A DNA stretch of 64,000 nucleotides from Escherichia coli (GTDB lineage Bacteria > Pseudomonadota > Gammaproteobacteria > Enterobacterales > Enterobacteriaceae), in the NCBI RefSeq assembly GCF_030013595.1, contig NZ_CP122768.1. One strand, 5' to 3'. Position 1 is the stretch's first letter. The number at the start of each line of letters is the position of its first letter. Positions 44,134 through 44,812 of the stretch are shown one piece after another. A program made the position numbers and the translations under genes. The notes beneath the pieces were generated by a model. That model made no database searches. It had not been told where the DNA came from and saw nothing but the letters and a program-made list of their open reading frames with translations.

Positions 44134-44812
44134 ATGAAAATCATTTGCCTCGAAGAAAATTATCTCGACAGCGAGTTAGGGCGAGCGTGTATGCCTGTTG
44201 CGCTTGAGCAGGCACCTTTCCTTGGCGACTGGGGGAAAACCGTCGCTGATGGTCATAATCCTGACCGACTCCCTGCTTTCCCGCTTTAATAAACTGAATG
44301 TGCCACTCTATCTTCATCCCGGGTTACCGCTTAAAAGCGTACAGCAGGCCTACTTCACGGGCTTCAGCGCAGAGGTCAACGCCAGGCTTTCTATGTTTGC
44401 CTGGGGCTGGCATCACGAAGCGGGGATCCATTTGTTGCGGCTGATGTTATCGGGTGCATTTGATAAATATCCCCACTTGCAGGTAATCAGTGGCCACTGG
44501 GGGGAGATGTTACCCTTCTGGCTCCAGCGTCTTGATGACAGCCTACCACTGGCTGCAACGGGTCTGTCACGCACGCTAACGAGAACCTTCCAGCAACACG
44601 TTTACGTTACCCCGTCAGGTATGCTGACACTGCCGCACTTCAAGTTTATCTACGCGTTAATGGGGGCTGAAAGGATCCTGTTCTCCGTCGATTATCCCTA
44701 TCAGACCCCTGGACGGTGTAAAAACCTTTATAGACAGTCTGCCCGTCAACAAGGCTGAAAAAGAGGCCATCGCGTTTCGCAATGCAGAACGTTTACTGGG
44801 CATCACGGTTTA
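44134..44812 (+). pseudogene. Amidohydrolase-2 (ACMSD-like) family gene remnant, frameshifted/truncated
   Basis: N-terminal piece MKIICLEENYL... ending in a stop about 44284, a 186-aa middle frame (44198-44758), and a C-terminal piece AEKEAIAFRNAERLLGITV in a third frame; total length is below the usual 0.9-1 kb. Confidence 0.5.

What the first reader, a model, noticed from the sequence alone, without database searches (positions are those of the whole stretch)
44134..44812. Degraded amidohydrolase gene inside an otherwise intact operon
An amidohydrolase-2 (ACMSD-like) gene is broken into at least three frames and is shorter than expected, while its eight neighbours are intact. This suggests the cluster's original substrate pathway is no longer complete, or that this step has been selected against.
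Basis: seen in the sequence. Interest (0 to 1): 0.3.

Follow-up and report, generated by a model that had tools for sequence, protein, structure and literature searches.

The report
Dead amidohydrolase gene in E. coli island
This is an ordinary dead gene: a hydroxybenzoate-decarboxylase-like enzyme gene in a 7.5-kb accessory island of E. coli lost a third of its length in one 356-base deletion and has collected further frameshifts since, while its neighbours still read through.

Summary
Window 44119-44813 (+) is the remnant of an Amidohydro_2 (PF04909) gene whose intact orthologs are 344-349 aa in Enterobacter-like contigs, Rahnella, Pantoea, Rouxiella and Serratia. Against these, the window copy has three lesions:
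- a 356-bp internal deletion (junction 44268/44269, out of frame) that removes barrel strands beta2-beta4;
- a His-to-Asn change in the N-terminal E-x-H metal motif (44158-44160);
- a +1 C insertion in a C-run (44706-44709).

These give three reading frames. The deletion is not a sequencing error. All of about 470 complete E. coli genomes that carry the island have it, and none of 5,426 holds the deleted segment. The later lesions differ between lineages: a 2-bp deletion, a 91-bp deletion, the +1 C.

The eight neighbours are full length, with dN/dS 0.02-0.25 against other genera. The cluster is not otherwise intact, though. A 953-bp deletion at 46571/46572 removed a DUF1330 gene and most of a second Flavodoxin_2 gene.

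A conserved 24-bp motif upstream of the next gene suggests the pseudogene ended its transcription unit, so its loss need not be polar.

Whether the loss was neutral or selected cannot be decided here. This is ordinary gene decay of low interest.

The parts
40938..48456 (.). The accessory island that holds the pseudogene: LysR regulator (-), then on the + strand a 102-aa protein, DJ-1/PfpI, AKR (315 aa), the amidohydrolase remnant, Flavodoxin_2 (190 aa), AKR (339 aa), ABM, CMD
   Evidence: This block is 88-93% identical to loci from Enterobacter-like contigs, Rahnella, Pantoea and Rouxiella, and homology stops at these ends. It is present in 484 of 5,426 complete E. coli genomes and absent from K-12.
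44119..44289 (+). N-terminal fragment of the amidohydrolase gene (frame A). Upstream ATG at 44119, conserved MKIIC start at 44134. It runs into TAA TAA at 44287-44292 after the deletion junction.
   Evidence: Translation. Residues 1-50 align with intact orthologs P0121-P0126.
44158..44160 (+). AAT (Asn) codon where every intact ortholog has CAT (His) in the invariant E-E-H motif at the end of strand beta1
   Evidence: Alignment column 56. H14 is invariant in 18 orthologs. The change is polymorphic in E. coli: two of the nine E. coli-type island copies compared (L016, L018) keep CAT.
44267..44270 (+). Junction of the 356-bp internal deletion, between 44268 and 44269, with 2 bp (GA) of microhomology. 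It shifts the frame and removes residues ~51-169.
   Evidence: DNA alignment with L003-L006. BLAST block offsets. Landmark coordinates.
44249..44758 (+). Middle fragment (frame B). It is a 169-aa ORF from the ATG at 44249 (ORF listing gives 44198 as a TTG start). It holds the beta5 His (LYLHPG), the beta6 His (SGHWGE) and the beta8 Asp (VDYPY), then reads out of frame to TGA 44756-44758.
   Evidence: Pfam hit. RefSeq annotates the equivalent ORF in other strains as 'amidohydrolase family protein'.
44706..44709 (+). Run of four C where intact genes and most E. coli copies have three: a +1 frameshift
   Evidence: Alignment column 961. Among the fetched loci it is shared only with L016. Same-length matches also occur in other complete genomes.
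44709..44813 (+). C-terminal fragment (frame C): LDGVKTFIDSLPVNKAEKEAIAFRNAERLLGITV, with the original stop TAG at 44811-44813
   Evidence: It aligns to the C-terminus of intact orthologs.
44857..44880 (+). ATTATTAGTTTTTGCCTAAAAGTG: a conserved motif (it contains the dyad TTAG-N7-CTAA) between the pseudogene and the Flavodoxin_2 gene. Putative binding site of the island's LysR regulator and start of a second transcription unit.
   Evidence: Two copies in the 64-kb window against 0.01 expected. This copy is conserved in every genus fetched, including Serratia at ~73% overall identity. Its function is inferred.
41893..41916 (+). Second copy of the motif (ATTATTAAGTACAGTCTAAAAATG), in the divergent LysR / 102-aa-gene intergenic region
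46572..46651 (+). Scar of a second deletion (953 bp): the 3' remnant of a second Flavodoxin_2 gene (PPLVFESASSGRLRSYQHQLIERLKQ*). The DUF1330 gene and the first ~85% of that gene are gone.
   Evidence: BLAST offsets. Alignment A2. The remnant's translation matches the C-terminus of the L004 201-aa protein. Pfam of the lost genes.

Best explanation
Window 44119-44813 is a non-functional pseudogene of a metal-dependent, hydroxybenzoate-decarboxylase-like Amidohydro_2 enzyme. It lies in a horizontally shared 7.5-kb cluster of redox and detoxification-type genes.

Shown:
- One 356-bp deletion, with 2-bp junction microhomology, removed residues ~51-169 and shifted the frame. That segment holds three of the eight barrel strands.
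- The deletion is fixed in every E. coli that carries the island.
- The remnant then gathered lineage-specific lesions: His-to-Asn at a metal-ligand position, +1 C, -2 bp, -91 bp.

Inferred:
- No fragment can form the (beta/alpha)8 barrel, so the step it catalysed is absent in E. coli. That step was presumably decarboxylation of a hydroxy-aromatic acid.
- The loss most likely followed relaxed selection in a gut-associated host, as part of a wider erosion of the island.
- The pseudogene was the last gene of its transcription unit. The downstream genes have their own conserved regulator box, so the neighbours remain expressible and are still under purifying selection.
For: Identity and family:
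- Pfam hit.
- Intact 344-349-aa orthologs at 80-98% identity.
- Syntenic intact loci.

Lesions:
- DNA alignment showing the 356-bp deletion, CAT>AAT and +1 C.
- Allele table across the nine E. coli-type copies: shared deletion, different secondary lesions.
- 472 genomes carry the short form, and none of 5,426 holds the deleted segment.

Structure:
- AF2 model of intact P0122: pLDDT 86, pTM 0.89, strands at 9-15, 83-88, 122-124/126-127, 152-155, 182-185, 241-244, 280-283, 308-311. The deletion therefore removes beta2-beta4.
- Fold and sequence neighbours are 3NUR, gamma-resorcylate decarboxylase, LigW and 2,3-DHBD.

Neighbours:
- Full length in the window and seven other E. coli genomes, dN/dS 0.02-0.25 against outgroups (annotations).

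Wider erosion of the island:
- 953-bp second deletion.
- Independent frameshift and a different multi-gene deletion in E. cloacae.
- IS-truncated island in pig strains.
- Island absent from ~91% of E. coli.

Separate regulation: motif.
Against: - No expression or activity data exist. The 169-aa frame-B ORF is annotated as a protein by RefSeq and could be translated.
- dN/dS of the remnant within E. coli is 0.34 (14 non-synonymous against 9 synonymous polymorphic codons). That is not the ~1 expected for long neutral decay. Much of this variation comes from two recombining haplotype classes that also cover the intact Flavodoxin_2 gene, so the statistic has little power.
- The substrate of the enzyme family, and of the whole cluster, is unknown.
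- The link between gut lifestyle and relaxed selection is an inference from which genera keep the gene intact.
Confidence: 0.9

Rival explanations
1. Adaptive loss: the decarboxylase step was harmful in E. coli, for example by turning dietary phenolic acids into more toxic phenols, catechols or hydroquinones. The deletion was then driven to fixation by selection while the detoxifying neighbours were kept.
For: - The deletion is fixed in all carriers, while all eight neighbours stay intact under purifying selection.
- The gene was inactivated independently in an E. cloacae lineage by a +1 frameshift.
- The closest full-length allele (P0123/L006) has His>Asn at the beta5 metal-ligand position.
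- The E. coli copy has His>Asn at the beta1 motif.
Against: - Fixation could equally reflect a single acquisition of an already deleted island.
- The island shows non-specific erosion elsewhere (953-bp deletion, IS truncation, loss from 91% of strains), as expected under relaxed selection.
- Most Enterobacter-type copies are intact (P0121 and P0122 clusters of 715 and 418 members).
- No substrate is known.
Confidence: 0.15
2. Sequencing or assembly error: the gene is really continuous and the frameshifts are artefacts.
For: The +1 C lies in a homopolymer run, a typical site of errors.
Against: - The main lesion is a 356-bp deletion found in ~470 independently assembled complete genomes, and the missing segment occurs in none of 5,426 genomes.
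- The +1 C is also present in strain WP2-W18-ESBL-10.
- Removing the +1 C would still leave a truncated, frameshifted gene.
Confidence: 0.01
3. The short form is a functional neo-gene: the 169-195-aa ORF is expressed and works as a half-barrel that dimerises, or as a binding or regulatory protein. In strain NRZ14408 a further 91-bp deletion fuses the N-terminus in frame.
For: - RefSeq annotates the ORFs as proteins.
- The NRZ14408-type in-frame 195-200-aa fusion exists in a 40-member cluster (P0002).
- dN/dS of the remnant is below 1.
Against: - The ORF structure is not conserved. At least five different fragment patterns occur among the nine E. coli-type copies.
- Three barrel strands and the beta1 metal motif are lost.
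- In the window, the last helices are also out of frame.
Confidence: 0.03

Closest known systems
Non-oxidative hydroxybenzoate decarboxylases of the amidohydrolase superfamily: gamma-resorcylate decarboxylase (2DVT), LigW 5-carboxyvanillate decarboxylase (4INF/4QRN), 2,3-dihydroxybenzoate decarboxylase (6M53/7A19), salicylate decarboxylase (6JQW)
   Same: - Intact orthologs share the fold (Foldseek TM 0.79-0.85, E 1e-24 to 1e-27) and the sequence family (E 1e-33 to 1e-45).
- The positions that align with the LigW metal ligands carry matching residues: E-x-H at beta1, His after beta5, Asp in beta8. The LigW residue numbers (Glu19, His188, Asp314) are from my own recollection of the LigW literature.
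   Different: - Only ~30% identity, and no family member has a known substrate.
- The window copy lacks beta2-beta4, has Asn for the beta1 His and is frameshifted, so it cannot be an active member.
PDB 3NUR, putative amidohydrolase from Staphylococcus aureus (structural genomics, uncharacterised)
   Same: Closest solved relative of the intact protein. E=1.3e-68 over residues 7-348, 35% identity, and the top Foldseek hit.
   Different: It has no assigned function, so it does not tell us the reaction. The window copy covers only about two thirds of it, in three frames.
   Same: Same Pfam family (PF04909) and the same superfamily branch of metal-dependent decarboxylases.
   Different: A much more distant relative (E ~1e-15 against 1e-45 to 1e-68 for the others). 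From my own knowledge, ACMSD uses H-x-H at beta1, whereas this family has E-x-H.
Ordinary bacterial pseudogenes formed by deletion and frameshift in accessory islands
   Same: - A truncating deletion that is fixed.
- Later independent frameshifts segregating between lineages.
- Fragments annotated as separate small CDS.
- The surrounding island is also eroding.
   Different: Nothing unusual. The only notable point is that the eight neighbours have stayed intact.

Membership tests
Amidohydro_2 (Pfam PF04909) | Significant match to the family HMM | tested here: met
   The C-terminal remnant scores 63 bits (cutoff 26.4), E=5e-17, but covers only profile positions 132-289 of 289. The 51-aa N-terminal fragment alone gives no hit. 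Intact ortholog P0123 scores 111 bits.
Amidohydro_2 (Pfam PF04909) | Complete (beta/alpha)8 barrel encoded in one reading frame | tested here: not met
   The 356-bp deletion removes residues ~51-169, which are beta2-beta4 of the AF2 model. The rest is split over three frames.
Metal-dependent decarboxylase branch (LigW / gamma-RSD / 2,3-DHBD / ACMSD-related) | Metal-ligand set: E/H-x-H after beta1, His after beta5, Asp in beta8 | tested here: not met
   - beta1 motif: EEH in all 18 orthologs (H14 invariant), but EEN in the window (44152-44160).
- beta5 His (LYLHPG) and beta8 Asp (VDYPY): still encoded, but in a frame cut off from the N-terminus.
Metal-dependent decarboxylase branch (LigW / gamma-RSD / 2,3-DHBD / ACMSD-related) | Fold and sequence closest to characterised decarboxylases (tested on the intact ortholog) | tested here: met
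   phmmer against PDB. Foldseek with the AF2 model of P0122.
Metal-dependent decarboxylase branch (LigW / gamma-RSD / 2,3-DHBD / ACMSD-related) | Decarboxylase activity on a defined substrate | not testable with these tools
   No member of this 344-aa subfamily has been characterised. The literature searches found nothing.
Pseudogene | Clear homology to an intact gene, with frame-disrupting lesions | tested here: met
   92-99% nucleotide identity to intact genes outside the lesions. A 356-bp deletion and a +1 insertion.
Pseudogene | Lesions are real and reproducible in independent assemblies | tested here: met
   472 complete genomes carry the short form. The deleted segment is absent from all 5,426.
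Pseudogene | Continued decay: independent secondary lesions in different lineages | tested here: met
   - +1 C: window and L016.
- -2 bp: L002, L015, L016, L018, L020.
- -91 bp: L019.
- H>N polymorphic.
- No frameshifting indel in any of the eight neighbours.
Pseudogene | No functional product | not testable with these tools
   Needs expression and activity data.

The most novel reading that the evidence does not exclude
Inactivation of the decarboxylase step is adaptive and recurrent in gut Enterobacteriaceae. Independent lesions point the same way: the E. coli deletion, the E. cloacae frameshift and His>Asn changes at two different metal-ligand positions. On this reading the cluster has been remodelled from a phenolic-acid catabolic or detoxifying pathway into a pure quinone/carbonyl detoxification module.
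Probability: 0.12. Interest if true: 0.35.

Novelty: new member of a known kind. Interest (0 to 1): 0.12.

Why it matters
It matters little beyond annotation.
- RefSeq lists the fragments as two or three separate proteins ('hypothetical protein' plus one or two 'amidohydrolase family protein') in hundreds of E. coli genomes. They should be one pseudogene.
- The locus is a clean, datable example of stepwise decay, because the deletion is fixed and the secondary lesions are lineage-specific. It could serve as a phylogenetic marker for the ~9% of E. coli that carry this island.
- The intact versions in Enterobacter, Rahnella, Pantoea and Serratia define an uncharacterised, well-conserved 344-aa decarboxylase-like family. 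It sits in a conserved LysR-controlled redox cluster whose substrate is unknown. That cluster, not the E. coli remnant, is the part worth an experiment.

Tried and rejected
- Sequencing error: rejected.
- Long form arose by insertion, short form ancestral: rejected. The segment missing in E. coli aligns continuously with 3NUR and the Pfam profile, and forms beta2-beta4 of a confident barrel model.
- Deletion between the two ATCCTGAC repeats that flank the lost segment: rejected. That would give a 354-bp in-frame loss, but the junction sequence fits a single 356-bp deletion with only GA microhomology.
- Higher nucleotide diversity of the remnant as proof of relaxed constraint: not usable. The elevated diversity extends over the intergenic region and the intact Flavodoxin_2 and CMD genes, and reflects two recombining haplotype classes.
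- Generic sigma-70 and terminator scan of the island: no more hits than in shuffles, nothing usable.
- Identifying the organism of the closest full-length locus, L006: failed. Its flanks are a helicase-like fragment and an integrase, with no match to the other loci.
- Literature searches for the island, the gene-cluster composition and the RefSeq protein accessions: nothing found. One search was malformed.
- NCBIfam: no model names the intact protein.

Full report
**What is in the sequence**

Between 44119 and 44813 on the + strand there is no single ORF. There are three overlapping pieces in three frames:
It reads MKIICLEENYLDSELGRACMPVALEQAPFLGDWGKTVADGHNPDR, then LPAFPL and TAA TAA (44287-44292).
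- Frame B runs 44249-44758 and reads ...SLLSRFNKLNVPLYLHPGLPLKSVQQAYFTGF...ISGHWGEMLPFWLQRLDD...ILFSVDYPYQT, then out-of-frame residues to a TGA.
- Frame C runs 44709-44813 and reads LDGVKTFIDSLPVNKAEKEAIAFRNAERLLGITV, then stop.

Frames B and C joined match Pfam Amidohydro_2 at E=5e-17, but only profile positions 132-289 of 289.

**Where the window comes from**

The region is Escherichia coli chromosome. A 3.6-kb query around the finding matches 484 of 5,426 complete genomes at 95-99.7% identity. In those genomes the cluster lies between hipBA and the yneL/ydeQRST fimbrial region. K-12 lacks it. K-12 homology resumes at window 48450.

The unit shared with other genera is 40938-48456. In this window an integrase/ABC-three-component element also sits between hipA and the island.

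**What the intact gene looks like**

A protein search with the C-terminal part found an Enterobacter cloacae protein (P0116) that carries 118 extra residues exactly between GHNPDR and SLLSRF. A second search with the reconstructed protein found many full-length relatives of 343-349 aa:
- clusters P0121, P0122 and P0123 (96-98% identity; 715, 418 and 174 members);
- Serratia ficaria (92%) and Pantoea stewartii (90%);
- more distant relatives down to Pasteurellaceae, Burkholderiales and Xanthomonas at ~60%.

Syntenic loci with an intact gene were fetched from Logan contigs (L004-L006) and from Rahnella rivi, two Pantoea species, Rouxiella aceris and two Serratia species.

**The lesions**

DNA alignment of the window with four long-form copies of the gene (three intact, plus the frameshifted E. 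cloacae copy) and two other E. coli copies shows:
1. A 356-bp deletion. The junction is between 44268 and 44269, with only GA shared at the breakpoints. 356 is not a multiple of three, so the frame shifts.
2. CAT>AAT at 44158-44160. This turns the invariant E-E-H motif into E-E-N.
3. An extra C in the run 44706-44709.

Among the nine E. coli-type copies compared:
- The deletion is in all of them.
- The His>Asn change is in seven.
- The extra C is in two (the window and L016).
- A 2-bp deletion at the position of 44618-44619 is in five.
- A further 91-bp deletion is in one (NRZ14408). There it happens to fuse the fragments into a 195-aa ORF.

A query made of the deleted segment finds nothing in any of the 5,426 E. 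coli genomes, while 472 genomes carry the short form. Short-query searches suggest that roughly 100 carriers lack the 2-bp deletion and the rest have it. This is an estimate.

The primary lesion is thus old and fixed, and the later ones are lineage-specific. That is the expected pattern for a dead gene, and it excludes the 'continuous ORF after sequence correction' test.

**What the deletion does to the protein**

An AlphaFold2 model of intact P0122 was built from an 18-sequence alignment. It has mean pLDDT 86 and pTM 0.89, and it is a (beta/alpha)8 barrel with strands at 9-15, 83-88, 122-124/126-127, 152-155, 182-185, 241-244, 280-283 and 308-311. The deletion removes residues ~51-169, that is beta2, beta3, beta4 and their helices.

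The nearest solved structures are the uncharacterised 3NUR, then gamma-resorcylate decarboxylase, LigW, 2,3-dihydroxybenzoate decarboxylase and salicylate decarboxylase. ACMSD is far more distant.

In the HMMER alignment to LigW (4INF), the His of LYLHPG and the Asp of VDYPY fall on the chain positions that correspond to LigW His188 and Asp314. Those residue numbers are from my own knowledge of LigW, not from a tool. The window copy therefore keeps two ligand positions. It has lost three barrel strands, changed the beta1 ligand and is cut into three frames. That it is inactive is an inference from the architecture of this fold, but a strong one.

**The neighbours**

All eight are open and of ortholog length in the window and in seven other E. 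coli genomes: LysR 299 aa, 102-aa protein, DJ-1/PfpI 229, AKR 315, Flavodoxin_2 190, AKR 339, ABM 231, CMD 267. Their dN/dS against five to seven outgroup loci is 0.02-0.25 (Pfam; annotations). No frameshifting indel occurs in any of them among eight E. coli copies, whereas the remnant has 94 gap columns.

The cluster is still not 'otherwise intact'. Relative to L004, L006 and L007 there is a 953-bp deletion at 46571/46572. It removed a DUF1330 gene and all but the last ~26 codons of a second Flavodoxin_2 gene. The remnant PPLVFESASSGRLRSYQHQLIERLKQ* is still readable at 46572-46651.

Other lineages erode the island differently:
- E. cloacae L003 has an independent +1 frameshift in the amidohydrolase and lacks Flavodoxin_2 and AKR339.
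- Pig E. coli strains have an IS cut right after AKR315 and a stop in LysR.
- Protein clusters P0088, P0089 and P0120 are fusion ORFs created by still other deletions.

**Operon structure**

The motif ATTATTA-N8-CTAAAARTG occurs twice in the 64-kb window, against 0.01 expected:
- once in the divergent LysR / 102-aa-gene intergenic region (41893-41916);
- once between the pseudogene and the Flavodoxin_2 gene (44857-44880).

The second copy is conserved in every genus fetched, including Serratia, where the island is only ~73% identical. In E. cloacae it sits directly upstream of ABM. It contains the dyad TTAG-N7-CTAA, the form typical of LysR-type boxes (T-N11-A; own knowledge).

I infer two LysR-controlled units, with the amidohydrolase as the last gene of the first. 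Its inactivation would then have no polar consequence. This is not tested, and the generic promoter scan was uninformative.

**Why it was lost**

This cannot be settled here. Points for simple relaxed selection:
- The whole island is dispensable. It is absent from ~91% of E. coli.
- The island shows unrelated deletions.
- The gene is intact in plant- and soil-associated genera and in most Enterobacter-type copies.

Points for selection against the step:
- The neighbours are kept.
- An independent frameshift exists in E. cloacae.
- The closest full-length allele (P0123/L006) has His>Asn at the beta5 ligand position.

The dN/dS of the remnant within E. coli is 0.34, from 14 non-synonymous and 9 synonymous polymorphic codons. 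It is not informative, because much of the variation belongs to two recombining haplotype classes that span intact genes as well.

**Comparison with what is known, and verdict**

This is an ordinary pseudogene of a known enzyme superfamily in an eroding accessory island. No paper on the island, the cluster or the RefSeq fragment accessions was found. RefSeq annotates the pieces as separate proteins rather than as one pseudogene.

Interest is low. The uncharacterised intact family and its conserved LysR-controlled redox cluster would be the more rewarding target.

Noticed in passing
window 46572-46651 (junction 46571/46572): A second deletion scar in the same island. 953 bp are missing relative to L004, L006 and L007, which removes a DUF1330 gene and ~85% of a second, signal-peptide-bearing Flavodoxin_2 gene. 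A 26-codon 3' remnant is left.
   Followed up: yes
window 41893-41916 and 44857-44880: The 24-bp motif ATTATTA-N8-CTAAAARTG occurs twice (0.01 expected). The second copy is conserved from E. coli to Serratia. It is probably the LysR regulator's box and marks two transcription units.
   Followed up: partly
window ~27500-40900: An integrase-bearing element sits between hipA and the island's LysR gene. It carries an ABC-three-component system (AAA ATPase plus middle component), an Xre/MbcA-like antitoxin pair and hypothetical genes. Only two complete genomes share the arrangement over at least 80% of the query.
   Followed up: partly
L006 4214-5263 (protein P0123): The full-length allele closest to the E. 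coli remnant (dS 0.01-0.05) has Asn instead of His at the beta5 metal-ligand position (LYLNPG). The AKR315 and ABM genes are split in the same locus, so that island copy also looks as if it is decaying.
   Followed up: partly
window 44269-45536 and 47415-48456; loci L016-L020: E. coli carries two diverged haplotype classes of the island. They differ at up to 15% of sites in the 150-bp intergenic region 44814-44963, and there are recombinant mosaics such as L018. One class is nearly identical to L006.
   Followed up: partly
L015 (JAIJJM010000311.1, labelled MAG: Collinsella sp.): This 3.6-kb contig is 99.4% identical to the E. coli island, including the 356-bp-deleted pseudogene. It is almost certainly E. 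coli DNA mis-binned into an actinobacterial MAG.
   Followed up: no
window 49142-52425 vs K-12 1590079: About 3.3 kb present in the window is absent from K-12, where ydeT is a truncated usher. Annotation of related strains places fimA, the chaperone and the 5' part of the usher gene here. K-12 therefore carries a separate deletion next to the island site.
   Followed up: no
window 46674-46760 and 47415-47480; L004 13247-13330: The ABM protein, the CMD protein and the lost second Flavodoxin_2 all begin with hydrophobic, signal-peptide-like N-termini. The distal half of the cluster may act in the periplasm.
   Followed up: no
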